From IMG/VR virus record IMGVR_UViG_2737471857_000019: 33,990 bases of DNA; one strand, given 5' to 3'. The stretch's first letter is position 1; each line of letters starts with the position of its first letter. Below are positions 1 to 33,990 of this stretch, piece after piece. The notes beneath the pieces are model-generated. The model worked only from the letters and a program-made list of their open reading frames with translations. It was not told the origin of the DNA and made no database searches. The position numbers were made by a program, and so were the translations under genes. Source of the stretch: a virus. Its lineage: Duplodnaviria > Heunggongvirae > Uroviricota > Caudoviricetes.

Positions 1-273
1 ATGCAGTTATCGAGACAAGATCTAACTGACTTGTTTGTTCGTCGCGGACAAGACTGGTCTAGCAAAGCAATTGCAGCCGCCCTTGATAATAAAGGGGTTG
101 ATATCACCACGATGGAGCGTGTACGCGGCTTAAAACCTGGAGCAATGCGTAACGTGTTTTATCGCCGCGTACCTGCATATGAATCAGCAATTGCAGAAGC
201 GATTGGTGTGGAACCGGAAGTTATCTGGCCATCACGTTATCGGAATAAAAATCCGCATAGCAACGCTGCATAG
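1..273 (+). CDS. ner: Ner-like DNA-binding regulator (Mu Ner / E. coli Nlp family); may be complete, since it starts with ATG at base 1
   Basis: C-terminal motif EPEVIWPSRY and a DW...IAAAL core resemble Mu Ner and Nlp as recalled; lies immediately upstream of the transposase as in Mu. Confidence 0.6.
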   Translation: MQLSRQDLTDLFVRRGQDWSSKAIAAALDNKGVDITTMERVRGLKPGAMRNVFYRRVPAYESAIAEAIGVEPEVIWPSRYRNKNPHSNAA

Positions 274-281
274 GTGGTGTT

Positions 282-2324: not shown

Positions 2325-2341
2325 TTTAAAAGGTGTTTAAT

Positions 2342-4424: not shown

Positions 4425-5009
4425 GTGGATGCCCGTGGCGTAATGACACCTGAAAGCCTTATCAAAGATATTGACCGCGACCGCGAGCAGCTGGTCGGTG
4501 AGCTTGTGGAGATGGTGATTGCTGCCTCCGCCTCACTGCGGGAACTGAAACTGCGTGCGTTTGGTGATATCCAGGCATTTATTGACCTGTCGGCGGAGAA
4601 ATACGGCGCTGTGAAAGGCGGCAAAAAAGGCAATATCACGCTTTACAGCTTTGACGGGCGATACAAGATTCAGCGCGCCATGCAGGACCGTATCGCGTTT
4701 GATGAACGCATTCAGACCGCGAAGTCGCTGATTGATGATTGCCTGGCTGACTGGACGGAAGGTGCGCGCCCTGAAATTAAAGCCATCATTAGCGAGGCAT
4801 TCAGCACGGACAAGGAAGGCAACATTAACACAGGGCGCGTTCTGGCCCTGCGTCGCCTCGAAATTGAGGACGAACGCTGGAATAACGCCATGATGCTGAT
4901 TGGTGAAGCCGTCCAGGTGATTGGCAGCAAGAGCTATATTCGTGTGTATGAGCGCGTTGGTGATTCTGATGAATACCGCGCAATCCCGCTTGATATTGCA
5001 GGGGTTTAA
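4425..5009 (+). CDS. hypothetical early protein, possibly DUF3164-like (194 aa)
   Basis: GTG start with GAAGG SD; size and position fit a family I recall from Mu-like prophages; assignment from memory only. Confidence 0.35.
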   Translation: MDARGVMTPESLIKDIDRDREQLVGELVEMVIAASASLRELKLRAFGDIQAFIDLSAEKYGAVKGGKKGNITLYSFDGRYKIQRAMQDRIAFDERIQTAKSLIDDCLADWTEGARPEIKAIISEAFSTDKEGNINTGRVLALRRLEIEDERWNNAMMLIGEAVQVIGSKSYIRVYERVGDSDEYRAIPLDIAGV

Positions 5010-5010
5010 C

Positions 5011-5244
5011 ATGCATCAGGATATCAAAGAGTACAGAGCCGGAAATCGTTGCGCGGCGTATTCGCTGGGTGCATCCAGAGCAGAACAACGCGGCGATTAT
5101 GATGAGGCAGAAAAACTGTGGCGCAAGGCAGCGCAAAGCCCGTGTAGCACCCTGCGCCGCATCTGGGCTGAACATCGTGCGGAGTTCTGCGCTAACGCTC
5201 ACCTGAAGGGCTGGAGGCCACGCCATGAATGCGAAGAACTTTAA
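5011..5244 (+). CDS. small protein, possibly ANR-family regulator-like (77 aa)
   Basis: ATG 2 nt after the upstream stop; pattern GDYDEAEKLWRKA...RIWAEHRAEFC resembles ANR-type small proteins as recalled. Confidence 0.3.
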   Translation: MHQDIKEYRAGNRCAAYSLGASRAEQRGDYDEAEKLWRKAAQSPCSTLRRIWAEHRAEFCANAHLKGWRPRHECEEL

Positions 5245-5416
5245 TAAGCAGTATCCGGTAGGGACTCGCTTCATGCACACTGCACATCCGGCGTTGCGTG
5301 GTGGTCGTGTGGTGAAAACCGTTTCACCTGCCAGAGATTTTAAATGTGGTTGTGTGGTTGAAATTAATGTCGAGCCTTATTTCGTTAAAATCGAAACACT
5401 GAAAGCACCGCATTAA
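5225..5416 (+). CDS. hypothetical small protein (63 aa)
   Basis: ORF overlapping the previous stop; no family recognised. Confidence 0.3.
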   Translation: MNAKNFNKQYPVGTRFMHTAHPALRGGRVVKTVSPARDFKCGCVVEINVEPYFVKIETLKAPH

Positions 5417-5423
5417 TTTAATT

Positions 5424-5486
5424 TGTTTTTAATTGTTATTTAAAACAGGCGTAAACCCGCCGGGCTGGCTTACGCCTGAATTAAGG
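5424..5486 (+). repeat. leader repeat copy 1 (AT-rich box, hairpin, SD) upstream of the 5497 ORF
   Basis: About 60 bp highly similar to 6049-6111; hairpin arms CAGGCGTAA (5446-5454) and TTACGCCTG (5470-5478). Confidence 0.7.
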
Positions 5487-5496
5487 GGATTTGTAT

Positions 5497-6042
5497 ATGA
5501 AAGATAAAGTCTGGGATTTTATTGTTACTCCTGAAGGTTTTGCTACCCGTTCATCTGAGAAGTTAACCAATGTAACGTTATGGACGTCATCATTGCTGGG
5601 CCATCTGGGAGCACCTGCCGATTTTATGCATGTGGTACTTGATGCACAGATTGCCGGGAATGCTATGGCCAGTAAGGGGGCTTATATTCAGGGAGATTTG
5701 TTCGCCATGATGGCGAATGACACAGCAGCGCTGTATATCGCCACACGGAACATACTGACAAGAATATCCATGCTGTCTGACTGTAAGGATATGGAAGACC
5801 TCGCATACATCCTTGAAGATGATTTGCTCACTATCTCAGGTGTGCAGGAATCCCTCCCGCGTCAGTTGCGGTTTATTGACCTGATGGAGTCATATAAAGA
5901 TAAGCCTGATTTTTTTCAGATTCGATTCAGTGGAATGGAATTGCTGGATGAATATTATTCGCTGGATTCGATTTCCCGTGATGTGAAGGCGTTTGTTAAG
6001 TCTGTTGATCGCCATTACCGGAAAGCTGAACGCTGTAGTTAA
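5497..6042 (+). CDS. hypothetical protein, visibly AT-richer than its neighbours (182 aa from ATG 5497)
   Basis: ORF with AAGGGGA SD; preceded and followed by copies of the same leader repeat; no family recognised. Confidence 0.55.
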   Translation: MKDKVWDFIVTPEGFATRSSEKLTNVTLWTSSLLGHLGAPADFMHVVLDAQIAGNAMASKGAYIQGDLFAMMANDTAALYIATRNILTRISMLSDCKDMEDLAYILEDDLLTISGVQESLPRQLRFIDLMESYKDKPDFFQIRFSGMELLDEYYSLDSISRDVKAFVKSVDRHYRKAERCS

Positions 6043-6048
6043 TAAATC

Positions 6049-6111
6049 TGTTTTTAATTTTATTTGTATATGACGTAAACCAGTCAGGGCTGGCTTACGT
6101 CTGAATAAGAG
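6049..6111 (+). repeat. leader repeat copy 2 upstream of the 6121 ORF
   Basis: Aligns with 5424-5486; hairpin arms GACGTAA (6072-6078) and TTACGTC (6095-6101), with one compensatory base-pair change relative to copy 1. Confidence 0.7.
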
Positions 6112-6120
6112 AAATTCATT

Positions 6121-6837
6121 ATGGAAAATAAAAGTAAATACATTGCCAGAATTAAAAAACTGTTACGCCTTGCCAGAGGAACATCAAGCCCGGAAGAAGC
6201 CGCTAACGCTATTGCAAAAGCCCAGGCTTATATGCGCCAGCATGGTATCAGCGAAAACGACGCGGAATTGTTCGATATTCAGGAGGCTGCCAGCGCGGGT
6301 GCCCCCAGTAATGCTGTGATTTCGCCGCGCTATATGCATGTTCTGTGTAGTCTGGTCCGCAATGCCTTCGGGGTTGAATGTTATATCTCCTTTAAATATC
6401 TGGAATCTGGTTCACGTAAATGCTACGTGAAATTTTATGGACCTGGCAGCCGCCCGGAAATCGCTGCCTACGCGTTTGATGTGCTTTCCCGTCAGATGAT
6501 GGCAGAGCGCAGGAAATATCAGGATAAACACTGCAAGCGTTGCAAACCATCCACGCGGGTGGCCCGTGGCGACCAGTTCTGCGAAGGCTGGGTCTTTGGT
6601 GCCCGTGATGTCATTGCGGTGTATGACGTCTCCCCGGAAGAAAAAAGCCGCCTTGAGCTTTACAGAAAGAACCTGCACAGCACTAAAGGACTGTGTGACG
6701 GGGATATGCGCACGGCTAAAGCATGCCGGGGTGCAGAGTTTGCCGCTACAGCCGGTTTTATCGCCGGGAAAAATGCCAGGTTGCATCAGGGGGTTAATGG
6801 TCAGAGCAACAGACTGCTGGCACTGGGGAGGGGGTAA
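6121..6837 (+). CDS. DUF2786-like protein with C-terminal Cys cluster (238 aa)
   Basis: N-terminus IARIKKLLRLA...SPEEAANAIAKAQAYMRQHGI resembles the DUF2786 helical domain as recalled; HCKRCKP...FCEGW cysteines. Confidence 0.45.
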   Translation: MENKSKYIARIKKLLRLARGTSSPEEAANAIAKAQAYMRQHGISENDAELFDIQEAASAGAPSNAVISPRYMHVLCSLVRNAFGVECYISFKYLESGSRKCYVKFYGPGSRPEIAAYAFDVLSRQMMAERRKYQDKHCKRCKPSTRVARGDQFCEGWVFGARDVIAVYDVSPEEKSRLELYRKNLHSTKGLCDGDMRTAKACRGAEFAATAGFIAGKNARLHQGVNGQSNRLLALGRG

Positions 6838-6839
6838 CG

Positions 6840-7067
6840 ATGGCTTTTAAACTTCTCAGTGTTACCGAAGCAATATACCAGCCGCCAGGAGAACGCCACG
6901 AATACAGGATGAATGACGGCAGCGCGGCGGTTGAGTTTCCCAAATATCCGGGGGCTTCCCGGTGGCGGTTCTATGACAGTGCGGGACGCCGGATTATTAA
7001 AAGAATCGTGCACAACGCCATGAAAGCCGCTGTAGAACGTCACAAAAGGAGGTTTAACTGCAAATGA
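6840..7067 (+). CDS. hypothetical early protein (75 aa)
   Basis: ORF translationally coupled to its neighbours (ATGA overlap with the next ORF). Confidence 0.35.
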   Translation: MAFKLLSVTEAIYQPPGERHEYRMNDGSAAVEFPKYPGASRWRFYDSAGRRIIKRIVHNAMKAAVERHKRRFNCK

Positions 7068-7294
7068 ATATTGAATTTTATGACTACGGAGTCACCTCAA
7101 AAATCATTGTCACCTGCTGGTTCTGGGAGTTCCGTCGCTATTGCCGGGTTGTGGATGCGGCGTTGTTTGTGGCTCCTGAAGTGCGCCACCAGAGTGGCGG
7201 TGGCCTTTTAATGAAAACCGTCATCACCGGTAAAACGGTCCCGATGTTACGGGCGTTTAAAGTGGCAAAACAGGAGGCTTGCAATGGTCATTGA
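7064..7294 (+). CDS. hypothetical early protein (76 aa)
   Basis: Overlapping-operon ORF; no family recognised. Confidence 0.35.
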   Translation: MNIEFYDYGVTSKIIVTCWFWEFRRYCRVVDAALFVAPEVRHQSGGGLLMKTVITGKTVPMLRAFKVAKQEACNGH

Positions 7295-7574
7295 TAAAAC
7301 GATAACGATCGATGTAGCCATGAATACAGGTCTGGCGCTTATCGGTTATGGCTATATCACTTTTATGTCATTCAGGTGGTTGATTTCTTCGTTCTTTAAG
7401 CAATGTGAAAAACGTTGCCGCAAAGACAAGCGCGTGAAGGCACTAAATGCGTTTAATGACGCTTTTGATATTGACCGTATGCAACAGGGAGACCCGGCAC
7501 GCGTAATTACCCAGGGAGATGTCGTGATTTTGGTATACCGGGGTGAAAAAAATGAACAGGAGGCGGCGCAGTGA
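7284..7574 (+). CDS. hypothetical small protein with N-terminal hydrophobic segment (96 aa)
   Basis: Hydrophobic stretch NTGLALIGYGYITFMSFRWLISSFF followed by a charged tail. Confidence 0.35.
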   Translation: MVIDKTITIDVAMNTGLALIGYGYITFMSFRWLISSFFKQCEKRCRKDKRVKALNAFNDAFDIDRMQQGDPARVITQGDVVILVYRGEKNEQEAAQ

Positions 7575-7879
7575 ACCAGCAAACCAGAATAAGCGATAAG
7601 AGCCTGACCAGACTGATTGCCGATGCTGACAAAATGCTTGATATGCGCGGGCCGATTGTAGACAGAGAGTGGTGGACGCTTTTACGGCAGTCCCTGGTTG
7701 AACTTCAGGAACGCCGGAGTGCCGGAATCATTCCAGTGACGCTGAGAGTAAAGGAGCATCAGGTCAGAGAGCTGGTTAATCAGTTACGAGATGTGGCAAT
7801 CAAATACCACGGAACGCAGCAATTACGGGAGCGTATAGCAACAACAGTCATTTATTCAGAACTGGTTTCAGGGGAATAA
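7571..7879 (+). CDS. hypothetical early protein (102 aa)
   Basis: GTG start overlapping the upstream stop (GTGA); no family recognised. Confidence 0.35.
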   Translation: MNQQTRISDKSLTRLIADADKMLDMRGPIVDREWWTLLRQSLVELQERRSAGIIPVTLRVKEHQVRELVNQLRDVAIKYHGTQQLRERIATTVIYSELVSGE

Positions 7880-8083
7880 TCAGATGAAAAACCGTAAGGC
7901 AAAAATTCTGTTAGCTCGCAGAAACGGTGTTGGGGTCTGGCGATGGTTGAGGATTAGTAACAGACGAGTGAGGTTGACGGGGTGTCGTGGTGTGATGGGG
8001 CACAGTTGTTGCAAAAAGCCCAGCGCGGCGCAAAACCGCTGGAAGAATCACACTAACGCAAAGTAATTAAATAATAACCAATA

Positions 8084-8111
8084 GCAGACCAAAATATATG
8101 TTTTGGTCTGC
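8084..8111 (+). promoter_or_regulatory. perfect 11 bp-stem hairpin / inverted repeat GCAGACCAAAA..TTTTGGTCTGC
   Basis: Read directly; overlaps a direct repeat ATGTTTTGGTC (8098-8108 and 8120-8130) just upstream of the 8134 ORF. Confidence 0.5.
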
Positions 8112-8133
8112 CAAAAGCGATGTTTTGGTCATT

Positions 8134-8412
8134 ATGAAGATTGAACAAATCGGAATGGCAGCCTTCCGGCAGCAGGCTGAAAGCGGTGGCGTGGATGAGT
8201 TCGTCGTGCAGCGGTTCGGTGGTGTGTATCACCTCTTCGCTGTGAATCGCCGCGCTGGTGTGTCTTATTTTCTACAGGAACGCCGTGGCGATTACAAGAC
8301 GTGGCTGTCTCTTGACCGTGCCGCCGCGTTCCTGTCAGGGATTGGCGTTTCACGTTTTACCGTGCGTTTTGAGGATAACAAACATGCTGAAAAAGATGAT
8401 CGGAGCCATTAA
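8134..8412 (+). CDS. hypothetical early protein (92 aa)
   Basis: ATG 8134 downstream of the hairpin; track start 8098 lies inside the hairpin. Confidence 0.35.
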   Translation: MKIEQIGMAAFRQQAESGGVDEFVVQRFGGVYHLFAVNRRAGVSYFLQERRGDYKTWLSLDRAAAFLSGIGVSRFTVRFEDNKHAEKDDRSH

Positions 8413-21906: not shown

Positions 21907-22129
21907 GGCGGCTCCCGGGGTGAAGTTCCCGATGGAGGATAACGCCCGGAAATACATCACCACGGAAGCGGTGAACGTTGAGAACACCGCTTATTACCGG
22001 CGCGCCGTTCAGGACGGTGACCTGATTCTGGTGAAGGATGAGCCTGAAACCACCGTGACGGCTGAACAGGACGCCGTGCAGGTAAAAGCGAAGGCGAAGA
22101 GAGAGAAACAGGTGGATTCCGATGAGTGA
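21887..22129 (+). CDS. Mu gp38-like small protein (DUF2635-like)
   Basis: 80 aa ORF directly upstream of the sheath gene. Confidence 0.45.
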   Translation: MNKMKVKAAPGVKFPMEDNARKYITTEAVNVENTAYYRRAVQDGDLILVKDEPETTVTAEQDAVQVKAKAKREKQVDSDE

Positions 22130-23543
22130 AATTCAGTTTGACACCATTTCGGGCGGTATCCGTAAGCCCGGTGTGCATTTTGAGTTTAATACCCGGCTGG
22201 CCGTTAACACGCTGCCGGGTAATGAACAGCGTGTTCTTGTGATTGGTCCGATGCTGTCAGGCGGCACCGCCACGCCCCTGAATGCCGTTTCCGTGTATTC
22301 CGAAGACGAAGCGGATTTGTATTTCGGGGCCGGTTCGCTGGCCGCTGCAATGGCGCGCGCGGCCATTAATGCCAACAGCTATCTGCAACTGGATGTTATC
22401 GGTATTGCAGACAGTGGCGCAGGAAAGGCAGCAACCGGCGCGGTTACCGTCAGCGGTACGGCAATCAGCAGCGGCACACTGTCGGTATGGGTTGCCGGTG
22501 AGCAGGTCACGGTGGATGTGGAAACCGGTGATGAACCGTCGAAAATCATTCCGGCACTGGTGGAAGCAATGACGCAGACGCCCTCGCTTCTGGTGACGGG
22601 GGAATACAAATCAGAAACCTCTCAGCTGACGGTGACCACCCGGACCAAAGGAGCCTGGGGGAATGACATTACCCTGTCAGCGTCCACCACGGCAGGCGGT
22701 CTGACCGTGAACGCCACGCCGATGGCGAACGGCGAAATGGACCCGGATATTCAGCCCGCACTGGATGCAGTTTTCGCCGCCGGTCACAACATTCTGATTT
22801 GTCCGTTCAGTACCACGCCAGCCCTTGCCGCCCTGAAGCAGCATCTGGAGAAAACCGGGAACGCGATGGAACAGCGCGGCGCGATTGGCTGTGCGGGCTG
22901 GACGGGCAGTCTCGGGAACGGGATCACCCTGGCAGCTGGTGTGAACAGCGGGCGCGTGTCCGTCCCCTGGTATCGCGGCTCCGTGAAGCTGCCAGCGGTA
23001 CTGGCTGCCATCTACGGCGCTGTGATGGCGGGCGAGGAAGACCCGGCACGTCCGCTGAACTCGCTGGCGCTGTCCGGGCTGGATGTGGTCGCCATGTCAC
23101 AGCGTGAAAGCCGTAACGAGCAGGAAAACGCCCTGCATAACGGCCTGACGCCGGTTGAGGTTGGCCCGGGTAACACGGTGCAGATTGTGCGTGCGGTCAG
23201 TACGTACACGGTTAACGCACAGGGCGTGACTGACGTCTCGTTACTGGATGTCACGTCCATCAGAACGCTGGACTACACCCGCAAGGCGTGCCGCGAACGC
23301 ATCAGCCTTCGCTTCCCGCGCGAAAAACTCAGCACCCGTACTATCGCAAAAGTGGAAAGCGAACTGTATGACGTGCTGATTAAGCTGGAGGAAGCGGAGA
23401 TTCTGGAGAACGTGGAAGCGAACAAGGCAAAGCTGCGCGTTCAGCGAAACGGGAAAGATGCAAACCGTCTCGACTGCGTGGTTCCGGCGGATGTGGTTAA
23501 CGGCCTGCATGTGTTTGCCGGTCGCATCGACATGATTTTGTAA
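22122..23543 (+). CDS. tail sheath protein (Mu L-like)
   Basis: 473 aa ORF followed by a 124 aa tube-sized gene; contractile-tail synteny. Confidence 0.75.
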   Translation: MSEIQFDTISGGIRKPGVHFEFNTRLAVNTLPGNEQRVLVIGPMLSGGTATPLNAVSVYSEDEADLYFGAGSLAAAMARAAINANSYLQLDVIGIADSGAGKAATGAVTVSGTAISSGTLSVWVAGEQVTVDVETGDEPSKIIPALVEAMTQTPSLLVTGEYKSETSQLTVTTRTKGAWGNDITLSASTTAGGLTVNATPMANGEMDPDIQPALDAVFAAGHNILICPFSTTPALAALKQHLEKTGNAMEQRGAIGCAGWTGSLGNGITLAAGVNSGRVSVPWYRGSVKLPAVLAAIYGAVMAGEEDPARPLNSLALSGLDVVAMSQRESRNEQENALHNGLTPVEVGPGNTVQIVRAVSTYTVNAQGVTDVSLLDVTSIRTLDYTRKACRERISLRFPREKLSTRTIAKVESELYDVLIKLEEAEILENVEANKAKLRVQRNGKDANRLDCVVPADVVNGLHVFAGRIDMIL

Positions 23544-24483: not shown

Positions 24484-26695
24484 TTTCAAAGTTGGCATGA
24501 CCCTGACTGCGAAGGACGAAGCCTCGCAGGTTCTGGAAAAGGGAAAAAAGAAGGTTGTAAAAGCCACTGAAGGAGTGGAAAAAGCAACCAAAAAGGCAGG
24601 TCAGGAACAGAAACGCACCGATGATGAGAGCGTCAACAGCACAAAAAGGGTTGTCACCGAATTACAGCGTGCAGCCCGTGCCCGGGAAACGCTTGGCATC
24701 CGTTCGGAGCATGAAATCCGTCGGGAAATCGCCCTTACTGAAGCCAGTTATAACCGCCTTGCCCGTAGTGGCGTTATGTCTGCCCGCGAACAGGCGCGGG
24801 CATGGCGTGCCACGAAAGAGCAAATCCGGGAACTGAAGCGGGAAATGCGTGGTGTCGGCACGCTGGCAAAGGCGGCCAATATTGGCGGCAACGTCCTGAC
24901 GATTGGTGGTGGTATCGCAGCAGGTGCGGCCATTATGGCGCAGCCGGTCAAAAAGCAGATGAGCTACGAACGCCGGCTGGCAATGATGGCCAATACCGCC
25001 TTCAGTGATGGCGGGCTGGAAGGGCGCAGGGCTGGTCTTGAGCAGATGAAAAGCAGCATCCGTAACGCGGTGACCTATGGCGGCGGTACGAAAGAAGACG
25101 CAGCCGAAACACTGGATGCCCTGCTGAAAGACGGCATTTCATTTGACACAGCCAACAAGTGGCTGCCTGAACTGATGAAATACGCCACGGCTTCTGGTGC
25201 ATCTGCAACAGACCTGGCCAACGTAATGGTCAAAGGAAAAAAGACCTTTGGATTCAGGGATGAAGATATTTCCACCGTTCTGAATATGGCGATTGCAGCG
25301 GGCAAAGAAGGCAGCTTTGAACTGAACGACATGGCCCGCTGGTTATCCCAGCAAATGGGCGCTGCGTCAGCTGCGGGGATGAAAGGCAAAGATGATTTCG
25401 TCAAGATTCTGGCGCTGAATGAAGCTGCCGCCATCACGGCTGGAAGCAGTGATGAAGCCGGAAATAACGTGGTTAACCTGCTGGCAAAACTGACCAGTAA
25501 GGATATTGAAACAGCGGCTGCGGGGATAAATTACAACGGTAAGGGAATCGACTTTTCCGGCACGCTGACTGAAGCACGTGAGAATGGACTTAATCCGATA
25601 GACGCGCTGTCCAGCCTGATAGACAAAATCGTTGCCAGCGATAAACGCTATCAGGAGCTGCAAAAGAAACTGGCCTCCGCCCGGGATAAAGGCGAGCAGA
25701 CGGCTGTTTATGATTCGATGGCAACACTCCTTGAAGGCTTTGGTGTCGGAAAGCTGGTTGCAGACCGTCAGGCGTTGATGGCGTTGTTAGCCTACCGTAA
25801 CAACCCTGAATACCGGAAAAAGGTTGAAGACGCGATTAATCAGCAGCGCACCCTGCCGGAAGGCCAGCGCGCGGGTGATGTGGATTTTAACTTCATATCC
25901 GGCCTCAATGACTTTAAAACCGAACAGGCTAAAAACACGCTTGAATTTTCACAAATGGACAGCATGAAAAAGCTGGCGGATGCGTCCGGTACTGTGGCCG
26001 ATGCCATAAGCTGGGCGGGTGAAAAATTTCCGGGGCTGACCACAGCAGTGGTGGGTGCCACGACCGCGATTGAAGCGATGACCGCAGCGGCTCTGACATG
26101 GGCCGGGATCAAAATCCTGACCGGGGGTAAACCCGGTGGCAAGGCTGGCGAGGTTGTCGGTGATGTAATTGAAAACACGGTCAAAAAAGGCAAAGGATTT
26201 AAATTCCCCGGCATTGCCGGTAGCCTGCTTTCTTTCGGTGGCACCGTTACGGCACTGGCCACCGCAACCAGCCCGGAAGAAGACGCCGCCGTCGAAGGAA
26301 GCGAAGAACGCTGGAAACGCATCCGCGCCCGATATCCCCAGGAAATCATCGACGCCGCCCGCAAAAAATACCAGCCATGGTGGCAGTTTGGGGAAGGCTA
26401 TTCCACCGAAAACGAAGAATGGTTGAGGCGCTGGGAGGAAGACACGAAAAAAGCCGCATCTGATGCCCTGCCATCACCGGCGCAGGTTAACAAAGCCGCA
26501 GGAAACACAACGCCTGAACCGGCATCAACGCAACCCGGACGCATCACCCAGCCGGAATACCTCACGCACTGGGGGCCACCTGCCAGCCCCATTAATTTCA
26601 CCACACAACTGGTGCTCGATGGTCAGGTCGTGGCGGAGGCAGTGAACAAATACAACCTTCAGGACGGTAACAGAGGCACGGGAGGAACTTACTGA
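24473..26695 (+). CDS. tail tape measure protein
   Basis: 740 aa Ala/Gly-rich protein between the chaperone and the DNA circularisation gene. Confidence 0.8.
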   Translation: MAGNFKVGMTLTAKDEASQVLEKGKKKVVKATEGVEKATKKAGQEQKRTDDESVNSTKRVVTELQRAARARETLGIRSEHEIRREIALTEASYNRLARSGVMSAREQARAWRATKEQIRELKREMRGVGTLAKAANIGGNVLTIGGGIAAGAAIMAQPVKKQMSYERRLAMMANTAFSDGGLEGRRAGLEQMKSSIRNAVTYGGGTKEDAAETLDALLKDGISFDTANKWLPELMKYATASGASATDLANVMVKGKKTFGFRDEDISTVLNMAIAAGKEGSFELNDMARWLSQQMGAASAAGMKGKDDFVKILALNEAAAITAGSSDEAGNNVVNLLAKLTSKDIETAAAGINYNGKGIDFSGTLTEARENGLNPIDALSSLIDKIVASDKRYQELQKKLASARDKGEQTAVYDSMATLLEGFGVGKLVADRQALMALLAYRNNPEYRKKVEDAINQQRTLPEGQRAGDVDFNFISGLNDFKTEQAKNTLEFSQMDSMKKLADASGTVADAISWAGEKFPGLTTAVVGATTAIEAMTAAALTWAGIKILTGGKPGGKAGEVVGDVIENTVKKGKGFKFPGIAGSLLSFGGTVTALATATSPEEDAAVEGSEERWKRIRARYPQEIIDAARKKYQPWWQFGEGYSTENEEWLRRWEEDTKKAASDALPSPAQVNKAAGNTTPEPASTQPGRITQPEYLTHWGPPASPINFTTQLVLDGQVVAEAVNKYNLQDGNRGTGGTY

Positions 26696-27915
26696 TGGGC
26701 TGGGCTGAAAACCTGCAAAACGCTTCCTTTCGCGGTGTGCAGTTTGATGTACTGAACACGGATGAGCAAATCAGCCGCGACCATGCGGCCTATGAATACC
26801 CGTTTGTTGACGGGGCGGATTTGCACGACCTCGGACGCAAGGCGCGACCGTTCCGCATGACGGCGTTCCTGTGGGGGGAGTATTACGAATATAAACTCGA
26901 AAAGCTGATCGCCGCCCTGGACGAAGGCGGCGATGGTGAGCTGATTCATCCGGTTTACGGCTCCGTACCGTCGGTGATTGTGACCGGCTACAGCATTCGC
27001 CATGACGCAGAAAGCCCGGACAGCTGCACCATCGACATGAGCTTTCTGGAGAACCGCACCGGCAGCGCGTTGTTCAGCACCCCGTTACCGGAGCTGTTTG
27101 CACAGCAGTTATTTGAAGAACTGGATAAGTTACTGGCACAGTTAAGCGAATTATTTGACGCTGTTACGGCCCCTTTAAAGACCATTAACAGCGTGATTAA
27201 AAAAATCCAGACGGTACGTGCCACGCTGGTGAATACCCTGCTGATGTTCAAAAGCGATTTTCTCTCATCCATCGACAATATGATGTCACTGGCCAGCGAA
27301 CCCGGAAAGTTTATCGGCGGGCTGGCAGAGGTGCTGGAAATCCACACGTCAGATGTCGGGCACGCGCTGCCGGTCGCACTGGTCAGCGGCGATAAAACGC
27401 CGTCTGTGGCACTTCCGCCGGATGCGTCCGTGGAAGACGTGCAGGACGTGAAAGCGGCTTATGCGGTTCTGGCAGCCTCAGAGCTGGCCAGCGTGGCGAC
27501 GGCGATACTGTCAGATGAGGCCCAGTCAGAGCAGCTTATACCGGCGGATATCGGGCGACTGGTCGGGGATGTGCGCACCCGCTTACAGGCCGCCATCACG
27601 CTGTTCCGTGAACGCTATGAAGGCGAACGCGAACGGATAACCGAAACCGCATCACCGCTGGGGCTGATGTACCCGGAAATTATTCAGAGCATGAAGAACG
27701 TGGCGGCATCCGTGCAGGATGTCGGCCTGCTGGTGCTTTCACGCCGCCCACCGCTGACGCAGAAACAGGTGCAGGCGGACAGTTGTCTGCTGTTGCTGGC
27801 GTGGCAGTGGTACGGCGATTACAGCCGTGCGGCAGAGCTGCAACGTCTGAACCCGCAACTGCGTGACCCGAACAACATAACCGCCGGGATGGTGATTAAT
27901 GCCTATGCAAAATAA
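26695..27915 (+). CDS. DNA circularisation protein (Mu N-like)
   Basis: N-terminus ASFRGVQFDV...GRKARPF...TAFLWGEYY matches the DNA circularisation N-terminal domain as recalled. Confidence 0.75.
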   Translation: MGWAENLQNASFRGVQFDVLNTDEQISRDHAAYEYPFVDGADLHDLGRKARPFRMTAFLWGEYYEYKLEKLIAALDEGGDGELIHPVYGSVPSVIVTGYSIRHDAESPDSCTIDMSFLENRTGSALFSTPLPELFAQQLFEELDKLLAQLSELFDAVTAPLKTINSVIKKIQTVRATLVNTLLMFKSDFLSSIDNMMSLASEPGKFIGGLAEVLEIHTSDVGHALPVALVSGDKTPSVALPPDASVEDVQDVKAAYAVLAASELASVATAILSDEAQSEQLIPADIGRLVGDVRTRLQAAITLFRERYEGERERITETASPLGLMYPEIIQSMKNVAASVQDVGLLVLSRRPPLTQKQVQADSCLLLLAWQWYGDYSRAAELQRLNPQLRDPNNITAGMVINAYAK

Positions 27916-29816: not shown

Positions 29817-30167
29817 ATGGACCAGACGATTTCACCTGCAACCGGCGACTACGAACGCCGCCGGATTTATACACTCCATAACGCGGTTTATCTGCGACTG
29901 GCGACACCGCTTGGCAGTTACTGGGCGGATGCGTCGCTGGGGTCACGCCTGCACGAACTGAAGCGGGAAAAAGACGTTTCCCGTGTTCACAGGCTGGCGG
30001 CGCAGTATGCCAGCCAGGCACTTCAGCCCCTGCTTGATGACGGGCGGGCAAAATCCATTACCGTTGACACGAAAGCGGGCCAGCGAGGCTGGCTGTTGCT
30101 GTTAATCACCGTCACGGATAACGCGGGCACACCGCAGACGTTTGAACACCCTGTGAGGATTATGTAA
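29817..30167 (+). CDS. baseplate protein (Mu gp46-like)
   Basis: 116 aa ORF between the spike and J-like genes. Confidence 0.6.
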   Translation: MDQTISPATGDYERRRIYTLHNAVYLRLATPLGSYWADASLGSRLHELKREKDVSRVHRLAAQYASQALQPLLDDGRAKSITVDTKAGQRGWLLLLITVTDNAGTPQTFEHPVRIM

Positions 30168-31246
30168 TGCCGTTTCCTGTTCCGGGCGTTGCTGAAAACA
30201 CAGAACGCCAGCTACGTGATATCGCTAACGCCCTGCCGGGAGAAACCATCGACACCGGCGCTGACAGCGATTACCGCATTCGTGCAAATGCCGTATCCGG
30301 CGTGGCGGACGGACTTTATATGCATCAGGGATGGATCCTCCGTCAGGTGTTTCCTGACACGGCAGACCCTGAATATCTGGAGCTGCACTGCCGTACGCGC
30401 AATGTTTTTCGTAAAAAAGCAACGGCCTCATCCGGTCCGGTAGTGATTACCGGCACACCCGGTAAGACGCTGCCAGCCGGTGCGGAAATTCGTGGTGAAG
30501 GTGTCAGCGTGGCCACCACAGCAGACTGCACCATCGGTGATGAAGGCAGCGCAGAGGTGACGGTAAAAAGCACCGCCACGGGTGTACAGACGAACGCATC
30601 CGCAACGCAGACGGCAACGCTGGTCAGCCCGCCGGAAGGCATCAACAGCACGGTGACGATTAAATCCCTGACCGGTGGAACGGACAGGGAAAGTGACACC
30701 GACCTGCTGGCGCGTTATCTGGATATCCTGCGCAGGCCGCCCGCTGGCGGTAACAAATATGATTACAAACGCTGGGCGCTGGAAGTGGATGGCGTTACCT
30801 CAGCATATGTGGAGCCGTTACGTCGTGGGTTGGGGACGGTTGATGTGGCCATTACGTCAGCCAATGACCTCCCTTCGCAGGAACTGATTAATGCCGTGCT
30901 GGCACATATTGAGGAAGTCCGCCCGGTCACAGCGAAGGACACAATGGTACTGGCCCCGACGAAAAAAGCCGTTGATTTCGTTGTTCGGGTAAAAACCAGC
31001 GGCCTGACCGTTGAGCAGATAAAACCGCAGATAACTGACGTTATCACGGATTTTATGAACCGGCTGGAGCCGGGGCAGGAATTAATAATTTCACAACTGG
31101 AAACCCAGATTTCATTAATTTCCGGTGTCAGTGACCGGCGAATCATTACGCCAGCAGACAACGTAAAAGCCATTATTAACGCGTCAACGTGGGAATGGCT
31201 GCGCCCGGGAAATATTGATATTCAGTCTTTTCCACGTGAGGGGTGA
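30167..31246 (+). CDS. baseplate J-like protein (Mu gp47)
   Basis: 359 aa ORF; Mu/P2 baseplate synteny. Confidence 0.7.
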   Translation: MPFPVPGVAENTERQLRDIANALPGETIDTGADSDYRIRANAVSGVADGLYMHQGWILRQVFPDTADPEYLELHCRTRNVFRKKATASSGPVVITGTPGKTLPAGAEIRGEGVSVATTADCTIGDEGSAEVTVKSTATGVQTNASATQTATLVSPPEGINSTVTIKSLTGGTDRESDTDLLARYLDILRRPPAGGNKYDYKRWALEVDGVTSAYVEPLRRGLGTVDVAITSANDLPSQELINAVLAHIEEVRPVTAKDTMVLAPTKKAVDFVVRVKTSGLTVEQIKPQITDVITDFMNRLEPGQELIISQLETQISLISGVSDRRIITPADNVKAIINASTWEWLRPGNIDIQSFPREG

Positions 31247-31250
31247 TTTT

Positions 31251-31823
31251 ATGAATATGGTCGATTTATTTCGCGCCATGCTGCCACCTGTCAGTTATGA
31301 CCTGAACGGGAAATATATTTCCGCAGAACTGACAGCCGAGGCTGACGTCATGGAGGCCGTGAAGGCCTCAGCGGCGCGCGTTCTGGCACAAATCACCCCG
31401 TTGCAGGCATCGATGACGCTGTCCGACTGGGAGCGCGTGTACAGTGTTGTCCCCCGTGAAGAGGCAACACAACAGGAGCGGCGGCAGAACATTCTGGTAA
31501 AAATGGCAGCCACTGGCGGACTGTCAATCCCTTACTTTAAGAGCCTTGCCGCCAGTCTGGGCTATACCATCACCATTACGGAGCCGCGACCGTTCCGGGT
31601 GGGGATAAACCGCTGCGGCGACCGTCTGCTGATACCGGAAATCCGCTGGGCGTGGCAGGTCAACGTTATCGGGACAAAAACACCGGTCTACCGGTTCAGA
31701 ACGGGCGCATCGGCAACCGGCGAACCTCTGACGGCCTTTGGTGAATCCATTTTAGAAAACACGTTTAAAGACCTTAAACCGGCTTTTACAGACTGTTATT
31801 TTACGTATGAGGTGGAGGAATAA
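31251..31823 (+). CDS. tail protein (Mu gp48-like, DUF2313)
   Basis: ATG 31251 with GAGGGGTGA SD (track start 31215 is TTG); follows the J-like gene. Confidence 0.6.
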   Translation: MNMVDLFRAMLPPVSYDLNGKYISAELTAEADVMEAVKASAARVLAQITPLQASMTLSDWERVYSVVPREEATQQERRQNILVKMAATGGLSIPYFKSLAASLGYTITITEPRPFRVGINRCGDRLLIPEIRWAWQVNVIGTKTPVYRFRTGASATGEPLTAFGESILENTFKDLKPAFTDCYFTYEVEE

Positions 31824-32626
31824 TGCAGAATTTAATGCCCCCGGTGAATACGCCGGATAAGTTATTTCATGATGGTGACCCGACTCAGGGAATTGAGGGA
31901 ACCATCGTTACTGCTGAATTTATGAATAATCATCAGGCAGCAACGCGTGATTTGCAGCAGGAGGTGATTAACGTCCTTAAAGAGGCTGGCGTCACCCCTG
32001 ACCCGGAAAAACAAAACCAGCTGGTTGAGGCGCTGACCTCGTTTATTGGTCAGAAAGTCCCGGATGCATCACTGACGCAAAAAGGCGTGGTGCAGCTTAA
32101 CAGTGCTGTTAACAGTGAATCAGAAACAGAAGCTGCCACACCAAAAGCGGTCAAAATTGCGATAGATAACGCAAACGCCAGACTGGCAAAAGACCGTAAC
32201 GGCGCAGACATCCCGAATAAACAGTTGTTTCTGGATAACATCAGCGGTGTGCCAAAAGCACGCAAGGTCAACGGTATGGCCCTGACTTCGGATATCACCA
32301 TCAGCAGCATCAGCGGCAACGCCGGAACAGCAACCCGCCTTCAGAACGCCCGCAGAATCAACAATGTGCTGTTTGATGGCTCCAGCGATATCACAATCAC
32401 CAGTACCGATTCTGGTGCTGTGCGTAATTTCCAGTATACCAACGAGGTGTTTCATAATCCCGGCGGTACTGAAATTACATGGACATTCCGGGCACCTTCC
32501 GGCTGTCAGTTGTCAGGCATTTATGTCCAGGAAACGGGAGATAATACAGCAGACAATATCGGTGGTGTGTATTACAAATCCGCGCAGATTTATATCAATG
32601 GCTCATGGCGCACCGTATCCGGTTAA
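31823..32626 (+). CDS. tail fibre protein (short, 267 aa)
   Basis: Motif TQKGVVQLNSAVNSESETEAATPKAVK typical of phage tail-fibre N-terminal regions; followed by a Tfa-like gene. Confidence 0.7.
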   Translation: MQNLMPPVNTPDKLFHDGDPTQGIEGTIVTAEFMNNHQAATRDLQQEVINVLKEAGVTPDPEKQNQLVEALTSFIGQKVPDASLTQKGVVQLNSAVNSESETEAATPKAVKIAIDNANARLAKDRNGADIPNKQLFLDNISGVPKARKVNGMALTSDITISSISGNAGTATRLQNARRINNVLFDGSSDITITSTDSGAVRNFQYTNEVFHNPGGTEITWTFRAPSGCQLSGIYVQETGDNTADNIGGVYYKSAQIYINGSWRTVSG

Positions 32627-32640
32627 TTAAGGAGAAAATA

Positions 32641-33165
32641 ATGGAACTCAGAAACGTCACGCGTTATTACCCGGAAGAAATGCCTTATGGTGAAAACATT
32701 CAGTATTTCCGCAGTGAAGACGGACAGGATTTTTATGAATCACTGGATAAATTCACGAAGAAATACAAATTGTGTATTCACCCTGAAACCGGCGTGATTT
32801 ATTCGATGGCGGAAGACGTGTCCCGTCTTTATCCGGCTGGTTTCACTATTGTGGAAGTGGACGAACTGCCGGAGGGTTTTGGCATTGAAGCCTGCTGGTA
32901 TTACCGGGATGGCGAAGTGCTGCCGGTTCCGGTTGATTATTCGCAACTGGCAGAAAAGCAACGCCAGCGTCTTCTGGCTGAAGCCAGGGACATCACCTCC
33001 GACTGGAAAACCGAGCTGGGACTGGGCACCATCAGCGACGATGACAAAGCCCGTCTTACGCAGTGGATGGCATATATCAAAGCGGTGAAGGCGCTCGATT
33101 TAAGCCTGGTCAGTGATAAATCTTCCTTTGATTTAATTCAGTGGCCGGAAAAACCTGACGTGTAA
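32641..33165 (+). CDS. tail fibre assembly chaperone (Tfa / Mu U-like)
   Basis: ATG behind AAGGAG; C-terminus resembles the lambda Tfa family as recalled. Confidence 0.65.
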   Translation: MELRNVTRYYPEEMPYGENIQYFRSEDGQDFYESLDKFTKKYKLCIHPETGVIYSMAEDVSRLYPAGFTIVEVDELPEGFGIEACWYYRDGEVLPVPVDYSQLAEKQRQRLLAEARDITSDWKTELGLGTISDDDKARLTQWMAYIKAVKALDLSLVSDKSSFDLIQWPEKPDV

Positions 33166-33171
33166 AACAGT

Positions 33172-33197
33172 AACGGTCGCTGTCTGGTGACCGTTTT
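33172..33197 (+). terminator. rho-independent terminator after the tail-fibre assembly gene
   Basis: Stem AACGGTC/GACCGTT with a 10 nt loop, followed by TTTT. Confidence 0.6.
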
Positions 33198-33213
33198 CAG
33201 TTCAGAAGGCTTT

Positions 33214-33990
33214 ATGTCTGTATTAATTTCAGGAGCGCTGATTAATGGCGCTGGCATTCCGATGGCGGAATGCAAAATTTATTTAGATGCACTGGTTAAT
33301 ACCAGTGAAGTGGTTATTGAATCATTTGCGGTTATTGAAACCGATGCGGCGGGACAGTATGCCTTTGAAGCACAAAAAGGCAAATACACCGTACACATCA
33401 AACAAAAGAACGGCCCTAAGTGCTGTGTGGGTGATATTTCGGTTTACGATGACTCAAAGCCCGGCACACTGAATGATTTTCTGACCGCGCTGGATGAAGG
33501 CGACCTCAAGCCCGACGTGGTGAAACGCTTTGAGGAAATGGTGGCGCAGGCGCAGCAGAGCGCGGAAGCAGCAGCGGAAAGCGAGCGACAGGCCGGGCAA
33601 CATGTCGCTGATGCGCAGAAGATAAAGGAAGACTGCGAGACGCTGGCGGATAACGTACAGCAGAATGCAGAAGCCGTTGCCGAAGACAAAAATCAGGTGG
33701 CGTTGCTGGCGTCATCTGCCACACAGGATGCGGCCCGCGCAGAGCAGGCTGTCAAGGATGCCGACACGATAGTCCGGAAAGCGGTCGATAAACTTGCTGA
33801 TGCCGCAACGCTGACCGGCGAGGCAAAGGCCAGTGCCGAAGCTGCCGCACAAAGCGAACAGAATGCGGAAAATCACGCTGATAATGCAGCACAAAGCGCA
33901 CAGCAGACCGCGCAGGATGTGGAGGCAACGGTCACCGCACGTGATGATGCGGAACGTTTTGCGGGTGAGGCAGAAAACAGCGCACAGACA
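33214..33990 (+). CDS. second tail fibre, lambda Stf-like N-terminal domain with Ala-rich coiled-coil shaft; 5' partial, runs off the window
   Basis: MSVLISGALINGAGIPMAECKIYLDALVNTSEVVI...GTLNDFLTALDEGDLKPDVVKRFEEMV resembles the lambda Stf N-terminus as recalled; no stop before 33990. Confidence 0.65.
   Translation, partial: MSVLISGALINGAGIPMAECKIYLDALVNTSEVVIESFAVIETDAAGQYAFEAQKGKYTVHIKQKNGPKCCVGDISVYDDSKPGTLNDFLTALDEGDLKPDVVKRFEEMVAQAQQSAEAAAESERQAGQHVADAQKIKEDCETLADNVQQNAEAVAEDKNQVALLASSATQDAARAEQAVKDADTIVRKAVDKLADAATLTGEAKASAEAAAQSEQNAENHADNAAQSAQQTAQDVEATVTARDDAERFAGEAENSAQT

What the first reader, a model, noticed from the sequence alone, without database searches (positions are those of the whole stretch)
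33214..33990. Lambda Stf-like second tail fibre behind a terminator in a Mu-type tail module
After a complete short fibre gene, a Tfa-like chaperone and an intrinsic terminator (33172-33197), a new + strand gene begins whose N-terminus resembles the lambda side tail fibre, followed by an Ala/Gln/Glu-rich coiled-coil shaft. Two fibre genes in the same orientation with a terminator between them is not the Mu G-segment arrangement and points to a mosaic host-range module.
Basis: partly seen in the sequence, partly recalled or inferred. Interest (0 to 1): 0.45.

Follow-up and report, generated by a model that had tools for sequence, protein, structure and literature searches.

The report
Add-on side-fibre gene in Mu-like prophage
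The window ends in the first third of a gene for a lambda-Stf-type accessory fibre that closes the tail-gene cluster of a Mu-like E. coli prophage; it is real, but it belongs to a common two-gene cassette already present in sequenced phages.

Summary
An ORF starts at ATG 33214 and stays open to the window edge (259 codons). Residues 1-134 match Pfam PF08400 end to end (E 1.6e-50). Residues 1-93 match the solved Ur-lambda Stf collar domain (E 2.6e-16), and an AlphaFold model superposes on it (TM 0.91, 1.3 A). Residues 101-259 are an Ala/Glu/Gln-rich helix with an unbroken heptad pattern.

Upstream lie a Mu-S-type short fibre, a Tfa chaperone and a 10-bp hairpin; terminator activity of the hairpin is plausible but unproven.

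In near-identical E. coli prophages (99.3-99.8%) the gene runs on to 759 aa. A DUF4376 chaperone gene follows, and then the end of a transposable Mu-like prophage. I found no invertase, gix site, inverted fibre copies or mom.

The same order (fibre, Tfa, Stf-N fibre, DUF4376) occurs in phiP27 and Rac-SA53 and in 51 of the 80 closest IMG/VR loci. The two-gene cassette also sits behind gpD in P2-like prophages and behind stf-tfa in lambda-like ones.

It is therefore a new member of a known kind. The open question is where the lambda-type collar domain docks on a contractile tail. The neck is one candidate, by analogy with Vibrio phage XM1 gp40.

The parts
30167..31246 (+). Baseplate wedge protein, homologue of Mu gp47 (context)
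   Evidence: 34% identity to Mu gp47, E 7e-43. Relatives are annotated 'baseplate J/gp47 family'.
31251..31823 (+). Baseplate wedge protein, homologue of Mu gp48 (YmfQ). In Mu this protein is the docking site of the primary fibre.
   Evidence: PF10076 Phage_Mu_Gp48, E 1.5e-30. In the Mu cryo-EM structure the fibre N-terminus docks on the gp48 loop 133-155 (PMC11915804).
31823..32626 (+). Primary short tail fibre (267 aa), of the Mu S type
   Evidence: 38% identity to Mu S residues 12-200, E 6e-31. The match runs through the region that encodes gix in Mu, but no gix is present. Phage_fiber_2 repeat at residues 83-123.
32641..33165 (+). Tail fibre assembly chaperone (Tfa, 174 aa) for the primary fibre
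   Evidence: PF02413 Caudo_TAP, E 4.8e-21. 31% identity to Mu U', E 3e-25. phrog_136 'tail fiber assembly protein'.
33172..33195 (+). Hairpin (10 pairs, loop GUCU) followed by TTTTCAGTT; a candidate leaky intrinsic terminator marking the old end of the tail operon
   Evidence: About -14 kcal/mol, z -1.9. 97.5% of cells are paired in 4 sequence variants; two pairs change on one side and stay paired, and none changes on both sides. The scanner did not call it. Unrelated, canonical terminator-like hairpins sit at the same position in other lineages.
33205..33209 (+). Shine-Dalgarno-like GAAGG, 4 nt before the ATG
   Evidence: Read directly from the sequence.
33214..33498 (+). Anchor ('collar') domain of the accessory fibre, residues 1-95: a six-strand beta-sandwich plus a short helix
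   Evidence: PF08400. 9e7m at E 2.6e-16. AlphaFold strands at 2-8, 21-26, 39-42, 48-54, 56-63 and 69-77, helix 86-89. Foldseek best match 9e7m_Ta, TM 0.91, rmsd 1.3 A, 42% identity; second match 7kjk_A3, the XM1 neck.
33484..33513 (+). Linker, residues 91-100, between the anchor domain and the shaft
   Evidence: The pLDDT block for residues 91-100 drops to 55. It corresponds to the flexible linker 92-101 of Ur-lambda Stf (PMC12617516).
33511..33990 (+). Start of the coiled-coil shaft, residues 100-259; the ORF is cut by the window edge
   Evidence: Continuous predicted helix 100-258. Heptad periodicity reached by 0 of 2000 shuffles. The XM1 gp40 match extends to residue 197. In relatives the gene continues to 759 aa.

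Best explanation
Positions 33214-33990 are the 5' third of a gene for an accessory fibre of the lambda Stf type. It is the first gene of a portable two-gene cassette: the fibre plus a DUF4376 chaperone. The cassette is the last thing before the right end of a Mu-like transposable prophage, in the place where Mu itself carries the invertible G segment, gin and mom.

The fibre is built in parts. Residues 1-95 form a transthyretin-like anchor domain, joined by a short flexible linker to a long trimeric coiled coil. In full-length relatives a Phage_fiber_2 repeat, a conserved 'LDTLNELAAALG' region and a variable receptor-binding C-terminus follow.

The phage therefore makes two fibres at once rather than switching between two. 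One is a short Mu-S-type fibre that docks on baseplate protein gp48. The other is a long Stf-type fibre held by its own anchor domain. Host range changes by recombination in the conserved linker and shaft DNA, not by inversion.

The hairpin after Tfa is most likely the old end-of-operon terminator of the tail transcript. No room is left for a promoter, so the accessory fibre must be expressed by read-through.

Shown here: gene identity, domain make-up, absence of an inversion system, and recurrence of the module. Inferred: trimer formation, read-through expression, simultaneous display of both fibres, and the docking site.
For: - Domain identity.
- Coiled coil.
- Full-length gene plus DUF4376 gene, then the prophage end, in relatives 99.3-99.8% identical to the last 2.2 kb of the window. 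The prophages sit at different host sites (fliH, near yjfK, puu, fadR, chbG/katE), as expected of a transposable phage. MuA and MuB homologues and a Mu-type head are present.
- No gix, Gin, Com or Mom, and no long inverted repeats.
- The short fibre is a Mu S homologue, and Mu S docks on gp48 (PMC11915804).
- DUF4376 proteins are tail-fibre chaperones in Alteromonas phages (PMC10579305).
- The same four-gene domain order occurs in phiP27 L54-L57 and Rac-SA53 tail1-4. A baseplate-fibre-Tfa set lies directly upstream in 51 of the 80 closest IMG/VR loci. The same cassette follows gpD in P2-like prophages and stf-tfa in lambda-like ones.
- Mosaic structure.
- Hairpin. No sigma-70-like promoter in 31000-33990. 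Analogous terminators occur in other lineages, and hairpins follow Mu U and lambda tfa.
Against: - The window stops after 259 codons, so the rest of its own gene is inferred from relatives.
- In the closest overall relative (RM9088) the gene is frameshifted, and in TUM9812 it is truncated. The gene is therefore dispensable and sometimes decaying.
- The hairpin is statistically weak (z -1.9), has an interrupted T-tract and shows no compensatory double changes. phiP27-type and Rac-SA53-type modules have only a 23-26-nt gap with no convincing terminator.
- No expression or virion data exist for this lineage. INPHARED holds no close phage record.
Confidence: 0.8

Rival explanations
1. The accessory fibre is a neck (collar) fibre. 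Its anchor domains would bind the head-tail adaptor and tail-terminator rings, as the homologous N-domain of Vibrio myophage XM1 gp40 does, and not the baseplate. This is a refinement of the best explanation about the docking site.
For: Residues 3-197 match XM1 gp40 'collar spike' at E 1.5e-6, and Foldseek ranks 7kjk second at E 6.7e-7. XM1 gp40 has the same plan: a 100-residue Ig-like N-domain followed by a ~100-residue trimeric coiled coil. Six trimers bind gp4 and gp5 at the neck (PMC10457771). In lambda the domain rings the bare tube (PMC12617516), a surface the sheath covers in a contractile tail. In Mu the gp48 docking loop holds the S-type fibre. The cassette occurs with lambda-like, Mu-like, P2-like and phiP27-like tails, and a neck is the exposed structure they all share.
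Against: Neck attachment is not shown for any PF08400 protein of enterobacterial phages. The window's adaptor matches Mu gpJ but not XM1 gp4 by sequence, and its terminator matches nothing solved. Anchor domains 68-80% identical sit in phages whose neck proteins share no detectable similarity, which is odd for a specific protein-protein contact. The domain is closer to lambda Stf (42% identity in the Foldseek alignment) than to XM1 gp40 (23%).
Confidence: 0.35
2. [quoted passage not shown] The anchor would form a ring above or around the baseplate or first sheath ring (a lambda-like position), or would branch from the primary fibre or from Tfa.
For: The gene always lies with tail genes, not head or neck genes. 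The closest solved homologue, lambda Stf, is a distal collar. The only virion genes that travel with the anchor domain between unrelated phages are the primary fibre's C-terminus and Tfa: 84% and 70% identity with Rac-SA53, with nothing else matching. That pattern would fit branching.
Against: Co-transfer may reflect only physical linkage. In P2-like prophages the cassette is about 6 kb from the fibre-Tfa pair. Mu gp48 offers one docking loop per wedge. The tube/distal-tail-protein junction used in lambda is buried in a myovirus.
Confidence: 0.35
3. The gene is silent cargo or a decaying remnant. The hairpin would terminate the tail transcript fully and the downstream fibre would not be made in this prophage.
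For: The hairpin lies directly upstream, and no promoter-like site was found. Frameshifted and truncated copies exist in relatives. Lambda's own stf is inactivated in laboratory strains without loss of plaque formation (PMC12617516).
Against: The 259 codons in the window are intact and carry a Shine-Dalgarno sequence. Full-length intact copies with an intact chaperone gene occur in many independent insertions and lineages. The N-domain and linker are strongly conserved at the protein level. The T-tract is weak, which favours leakiness.
Confidence: 0.1

Closest known systems
Ur-lambda side tail fibre gpStf (PDB 9e7m/9mgh; PMC12617516)
   Same: The N-terminal collar domain is homologous (PF08400; 39.6% identity over 134 aa; model TM 0.91). 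Both then have a short flexible linker, a long Ala-rich trimeric coiled coil, a Phage_fiber_2 repeat in the full-length relative, and a dedicated chaperone gene downstream. Both are accessory fibres additional to a primary receptor binder.
   Different: The host virion here has a contractile Mu-type tail, so lambda's docking site (the tube gpV / gpM junction) is covered. The C-terminal receptor-binding part (phrog_2636) is not the T4-gp37-like tip of lambda Stf. The chaperone is a DUF4376 protein, not a Caudo_TAP Tfa. The N-domain belongs to a distinct subtype: 272 of 276 phage records are below 60% identity, and lambda-like prophages can carry both subtypes in tandem.
phiP27 L54-L57 and Rac-SA53 tail1-tail4 (published phage genomes)
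   Same: The four-gene order and Pfam content are identical: fibre, Caudo_TAP, PF08400 fibre, DUF4376. All lie at the prophage end. The N-domain and shaft start are 61-80% identical, and the C-terminal domain is 28% identical to phiP27 L56.
   Different: Head, neck and tail proteins are unrelated or only 23-41% identical. Those phages are not transposable. Their Tfa-fibre gap is 23-26 nt and lacks the hairpin seen here. Fibre lengths differ (490 and 1061 aa against 759 aa).
Phage Mu host-range module (S/U, S'/U', gix, Gin)
   Same: The baseplate (gp44-gp48) and the primary fibre's N-terminal part and Tfa are homologous. A hairpin directly follows the Tfa gene in both.
   Different: There are no inverted second fibre/chaperone set, no gix, no Gin and no Com/Mom. 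The second fibre is a complete gene with its own anchor domain, in the same orientation.
Vibrio myophage XM1 gp40 collar spike (PDB 7kjk; PMC10457771)
   Same: It has a homologous Ig-like N-domain followed by a ~100-residue coiled coil, and it sits on a simple contractile-tailed phage with a Mu-like baseplate.
   Different: Identity is only 23%. XM1 gp40 ends in a tailspike domain. Its neck location is demonstrated, whereas here the location is unknown.

Membership tests
Lambda Stf-type side tail fibre (PF08400 family) | N-terminal PF08400 domain | tested here: met
   E 1.6e-50, residues 1-134 over profile positions 1-134/134.
Lambda Stf-type side tail fibre (PF08400 family) | Fold of the Ur-lambda gpStf collar domain (six-strand sheet plus helix) | tested here: met
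   phmmer against 9e7m, E 2.6e-16. The AlphaFold model has six strands and a helix. Foldseek TM 0.91, rmsd 1.3 A.
Lambda Stf-type side tail fibre (PF08400 family) | Flexible linker followed by a long trimeric coiled-coil shaft | tested here: inconclusive
   The linker has low pLDDT, the helix runs 100-258, and heptad periodicity is reached by 0 of 2000 shuffles. These support a coiled coil. The trimeric state cannot be tested with these tools.
Lambda Stf-type side tail fibre (PF08400 family) | Docking as a 12-mer collar on a non-contractile tube at the gpV/gpM junction | not testable with these tools
   The phage encodes a sheath (22122-23543), so that surface is covered. No multimer modelling or virion data are available.
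Lambda Stf-type side tail fibre (PF08400 family) | T4-gp37-like distal tip folded by a Caudo_TAP Tfa encoded downstream | tested here: not met
   In full-length relatives the C-terminus is phrog_2636, with no gp37 or PDB match, and the downstream gene is DUF4376.
Mu-type invertible G segment | Inverted second fibre-tip/chaperone pair | tested here: not met
   No inverted repeats longer than 22 nt in L001:11400-16400. The second fibre and chaperone lie on the same strand.
Mu-type invertible G segment | gix crossover sites | tested here: not met
   No match to the Mu gix 26-mer within 3 mismatches in the window. The gix sequence was taken from memory and agrees with the Mu S coding sequence FIQNLGLQE.
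Mu-type invertible G segment | Gin-family serine invertase | tested here: not met
   tblastn with Mu Gin finds nothing in the window or in L001 at E <= 0.01.
XM1 gp40-type collar (neck) spike | Homologous Ig-like N-domain plus ~100-residue coiled coil | tested here: met
   E 1.5e-6 over residues 3-197. Foldseek E 6.7e-7.
XM1 gp40-type collar (neck) spike | Attachment to the adaptor/terminator rings of the neck | not testable with these tools
   The window's neck proteins show no sequence match to XM1 gp4 or gp5. No structural data exist.
Rho-independent (intrinsic) terminator | Stable GC-containing stem-loop | tested here: met
   10 pairs, about -14 kcal/mol. Pairing is kept in 4 variants.
Rho-independent (intrinsic) terminator | Uninterrupted U-tract directly after the stem | tested here: inconclusive
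   The tract is TTTTCAGTT, and two of the T pair within the stem. The scanner did not call it.
Rho-independent (intrinsic) terminator | Termination activity | not testable with these tools
   This needs Term-seq or an in vitro transcription assay.

The most novel reading that the evidence does not exclude
The subtype of Stf anchor domain seen here defines a universal plug-in accessory-fibre cassette (anchor, shaft, receptor-binding domain, DUF4376 chaperone). The domains are at least 60% identical to one another but only about 42% identical to lambda's.

The cassette is appended behind the last tail gene of temperate enterobacterial phages with unrelated virions: Mu-like, phiP27-like, P2-like and lambda-like. 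In the lambda-like case it comes in addition to the regular stf.

It would dock on a site common to contractile and non-contractile tails, most likely the neck, without needing a phage-specific adaptor.
Probability: 0.3. Interest if true: 0.55.

Novelty: new member of a known kind. Interest (0 to 1): 0.27.

Why it matters
Prophage fibres set host range and are raw material for engineering phages and tailocins. This locus shows a Mu-like phage lineage that has given up Mu's inversion switch and instead carries two fibres at once. The second fibre comes as a self-contained cassette that moves between unrelated phages.

If the cassette really docks without a phage-specific partner, it would be a ready-made way to add a second receptor specificity to very different phages. 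Locating its anchor on a contractile tail is a well-defined structural question.

As a genome-scan finding, however, it is ordinary. Every component belongs to a known family, and the layout is already present in the published phiP27 and Rac-SA53 genomes.

Tried and rejected
- **Classical invertible segment:** rejected. There is no gix, no Gin/Com/Mom and no long inverted repeats.
- **Own promoter for the second fibre:** no sigma-70-like site in 31000-33990, and only 18 nt separate the hairpin from the ATG. C-dependent Mu late promoters could not be scanned.
- **Known RNA element in the intergenic region:** no Rfam match and no tRNA in the whole window.
- **Covariation support for the hairpin:** there are only 4 variants, with no changes on both sides, and the shuffles equal the observed values. 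This is uninformative.
- **Sequence link between the window's neck proteins and XM1 gp4/gp5:** none. The adaptor matches Mu gpJ only, and the terminator matches nothing solved.
- **Literature on Stf-type fibres in Mu-like transposable phages:** no paper holds the terms. The phiP27 papers found do not analyse the dual fibres.
- **Mapped Mu P-transcript terminator:** the paper I recall (Zha, Zhao & Howe, J Bacteriol 1994) is not held. That point rests on memory plus the hairpin seen in the Mu sequence.
- **Same terminator as lambda's post-tfa hairpin in the lambda-like loci:** the sequences differ.
- **Deposited phage close to this prophage:** none. Only fibre-gene segments match.

Full report
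**What is at 33214-33990.** An ORF begins at ATG 33214, four bases after a GAAGG Shine-Dalgarno motif, and is still open at the last base of the window, giving 259 codons.

- Residues 1-134 match Pfam PF08400, 'Prophage tail fibre N-terminal', over the whole profile (E 1.6e-50).
- Residues 1-93 match the solved N-terminal domain of the Ur-lambda side tail fibre, PDB 9e7m/9mgh (E 2.6e-16).
- BLASTP against lambda Stf 1-134 gives 39.6% identity.
- An AlphaFold2 model built on 28 homologues (mean pLDDT 80) has six strands and a short helix, a low-confidence linker at 91-100, and then one helix from 100 to 258.
- Foldseek places the Ur-lambda domain first (TM 0.91, rmsd 1.3 A, 42% identity) and the neck 'collar spike' gp40 of Vibrio phage XM1 second.
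- Residues 101-259 are 27% Ala, 11% Glu and 11% Gln. Their apolar residues follow an unbroken heptad pattern that none of 2000 shuffles reaches.

The description as a Stf-like N-terminus followed by a coiled-coil shaft is therefore correct.

**Surroundings.** The window is most of a Mu-like transposable prophage.

- Near-identical copies in E. coli chromosomes encode a repressor, a Ner-like protein, MuA and MuB homologues, a Mor-family activator, a Mu-type portal, protease and gpT head protein, a sheath and tube, and the Mu baseplate set gp43-gp48.
- These copies sit in different host genes: fliH, next to yjfK, puu, next to fadR, and chbG/katE.
- Directly upstream of the finding are gp47 and gp48 homologues, a 267-aa fibre and a 174-aa Tfa.
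- The fibre's first ~150 residues are homologous to the constant part of Mu S (38% identity, E 6e-31).
- In the Mu virion the N-terminus of S docks on a loop of gp48, six trimers per baseplate (PMC11915804). The short fibre is therefore the primary, baseplate-attached fibre.

**What lies beyond the window edge.**

- In ten E. coli genomes the last 2.2 kb of the window is matched at 99.3-99.8%.
- In the three of these I examined, the gene runs to 759 codons. It is intact in OkiPb01701 and 08-00022 and frameshifted in RM9088.
- A 192-aa DUF4376 protein follows 15 nt later, and the prophage ends about 75 bp after that.
- Other members of the lineage have 567-aa or 684-aa versions with their own DUF4376 gene.
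- DUF4376 proteins are tail-fibre chaperones in Alteromonas phages (PMC10579305).
- The full-length protein adds a Phage_fiber_2 repeat (343-382), a conserved 'LDTLNELAAALGNDPNFATT' stretch also seen in another phage's collar fibre (9d93), and a C-terminal part that belongs to phrog_2636 and has no solved relative.

**Not an invertible segment.**

- The Mu gix 26-mer has no match within three mismatches in the window.
- tblastn with Mu Gin, Com and Mom finds nothing in the window or in the extended relative.
- The extended locus has no inverted repeat longer than 22 nt.
- Both fibre/chaperone pairs are on the same strand.

**The arrangement is common, not exceptional.**

- phiP27 (L54-L57) and Rac-SA53 (tail1-tail4) have the same four genes with the same Pfam content at their prophage ends.
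- Among the 80 IMG/VR loci closest to the N-domain, 51 have a gp47/gp48-type baseplate pair, a fibre and a Tfa directly upstream.
- Twenty-three more are P2-like. In about 17 of these the cassette follows gpD at the end of the sheath-tube-T-U-D operon, and in 6 it follows a P2-H-type fibre and Tfa.
- Three are lambda-like and carry two Stf-N genes in tandem. The order is J, lom, a fibre with a lambda-type N-domain (89-100% identical to lambda's), Tfa, a terminator-like hairpin, and then a fibre with the N-domain subtype seen here (64-71% identical to the window's, 42-44% to lambda's).
- In the deposited-phage collection, 272 of 276 records with this domain are below 60% identity and, among the records listed, mostly lambdoid phages. 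Only phiP27, Rac-SA53 and 'Actinobacillus' phage pPE4 are closer.

The unit is thus a two-gene add-on cassette placed behind the last tail gene of several unrelated kinds of temperate phage.

**Mosaicism.**

- Within the 25-kb virion region, the only stretch that matches any deposited phage at megablast level is 33419-33871, the end of the anchor domain, the linker and the start of the shaft (88-89%).
- E. coli relatives lose similarity at different points inside the shaft.
- Against phiP27, the sheath and baseplate proteins are 23-41% identical and head and neck proteins show nothing, yet the N-terminal 191 residues of this fibre are 68% identical.
- Against Rac-SA53, no virion protein matches except the primary fibre's C-terminus (84%), Tfa (70%) and this fibre's N-terminal part (80%).

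**The hairpin.**

- Positions 33172-33181 pair with 33186-33195 (about -14 kcal/mol) and are followed by TTTTCAGTT.
- Support is modest: z -1.9, no call by the scanner, and one-sided pair-preserving changes only among four variants.
- Two points favour a real element. Other lineages have unrelated but canonical terminator-like hairpins at the same spot, both top-ranked by the scanner: AGCCGCC-CGCA-GGCGGC-TTTTTAT in Mu-like relatives with a different Tfa, and GCCGGC-GAAA-GCTGGC-TTTTTT in lambda-like loci. Mu and lambda also have hairpins directly after U and tfa.
- From memory, the Mu P-transcript terminator was mapped after U (Zha, Zhao & Howe 1994). I could not check this.
- The phiP27/Rac-SA53 type has only a 23-26-nt gap.
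- My reading is that the hairpin marks the former end of the tail operon and that the cassette was added behind it. Only 18 nt separate the hairpin from the ATG and no promoter-like site lies upstream, so expression must come from read-through. This step is inferred.

**How it most likely works.** By homology with Ur-lambda Stf, three chains form a fibre. Their three anchor domains are tethered by short linkers and join a ring on the virion (PMC12617516). In lambda that ring of twelve domains clasps the bare tube at the gpV/gpM junction. Here the tube is sheathed and the gp48 loop is taken by the S-type fibre, so the site must differ.

- One candidate is the neck. XM1 gp40 is a sequence- and fold-level homologue on a simple contractile phage, and it binds the adaptor and terminator rings as six trimers (PMC10457771).
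- Another candidate is a ring at the base of the sheath or baseplate.
- A third is branching from the primary fibre or from Tfa.

I cannot choose between these. The neck fits the cassette's presence on both contractile and non-contractile phages. Against a tight specific contact, nearly identical anchors occur with unrelated neck proteins.

Functionally, the phage would display a conserved short fibre and a variable long fibre together. It would change specificity by recombination in the conserved linker and shaft DNA rather than by Gin-mediated inversion.

**Novelty and score.** Every part belongs to a described family. PGAP already names the gene, and the layout is in genomes published since 2002. 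The Ur-lambda paper states that Stf is conserved in sipho- and myophages. This is a new member of a known kind.

Three points may be worth following up:

- the distinct N-domain subtype;
- its portability across four tail types;
- the unknown docking site on contractile tails.

Interest is 0.27.

Noticed in passing
window 26695-27915: The gp43/N 'DNA circularization' (tube initiator) homologue is 406 aa. It has a clean in-frame 43-aa deletion relative to the 449-aa protein of the closest prophages, which are 90% identical overall because of that gap.
   Followed up: partly
window 1-3235: The window starts at the Ner-like gene of a Mu-like transposable prophage. MuA-like transposase is at 282-2324 and the MuB-like ATPase at 2333-3235. 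The lineage has no gin, com or mom. At least 80% of its 25-kb virion region is present in 55 of 5426 complete E. coli genomes, and no close deposited phage exists.
   Followed up: partly
window 32076-32230: The primary fibre keeps the conserved segment (KGVVQLNSA...AATPKAVK...AKDRNGADIPNK) that ends at the gix crossover site in Mu and phage 186, but the gix sequence itself is gone. An 18-nt direct repeat of the AATPKAV-coding DNA recurs in the second fibre of the relative (L001:12334 and 14505).
   Followed up: partly
L023, L032, L054 (IMG/VR), positions about 4700-8400: These lambda-like prophages carry two Stf-N fibre genes in tandem. The first has a lambda-type N-domain and a Tfa. A terminator-like hairpin follows, and then a second gene with the N-domain subtype seen in this window.
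   Followed up: partly
L045 2091-10567 and 16 similar IMG/VR loci: P2-like prophages carry the same Stf-N + DUF4376 cassette directly after gpD, about 6 kb from their own H-type fibre and Tfa.
   Followed up: partly
L008:7403-8458 (E. coli JNE21-009): A Mu-like relative with nearly the same baseplate has an unrelated 351-aa ORF in place of the Stf-N gene. That ORF has no Pfam or PDB match. The relative's gp48 gene is truncated.
   Followed up: partly
L007:9005-9388 (E. coli M8): This relative has an extra DUF1353 gene after the DUF4376 gene, at the prophage end.
   Followed up: no
protein hits P0004, P0017, P0027, P0053, P0056, P0061, P0064, P0066, P0069: Public records name fragments of this fibre N-domain 'shikimate transporter' or 'M14 carboxypeptidase N/E family protein'. 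These look like propagated annotation errors. Most database copies are 'partial', probably because this gene tends to break draft assemblies.
   Followed up: no
PP818812.1 43400-44062 (Actinobacillus phage vB_Apl-pPE4): A phage recorded as infecting Actinobacillus pleuropneumoniae carries a fibre N-terminal part 75% (protein) and up to 89% (DNA) identical to this E. coli prophage gene. This suggests either recent exchange or a questionable host assignment.
   Followed up: no
L002:3830-6445 (E. coli 08-00022) and RM9088: An IS66-family element (ISCro1) is inserted in the tape-measure gene of otherwise near-identical prophages, so those copies are defective.
   Followed up: no
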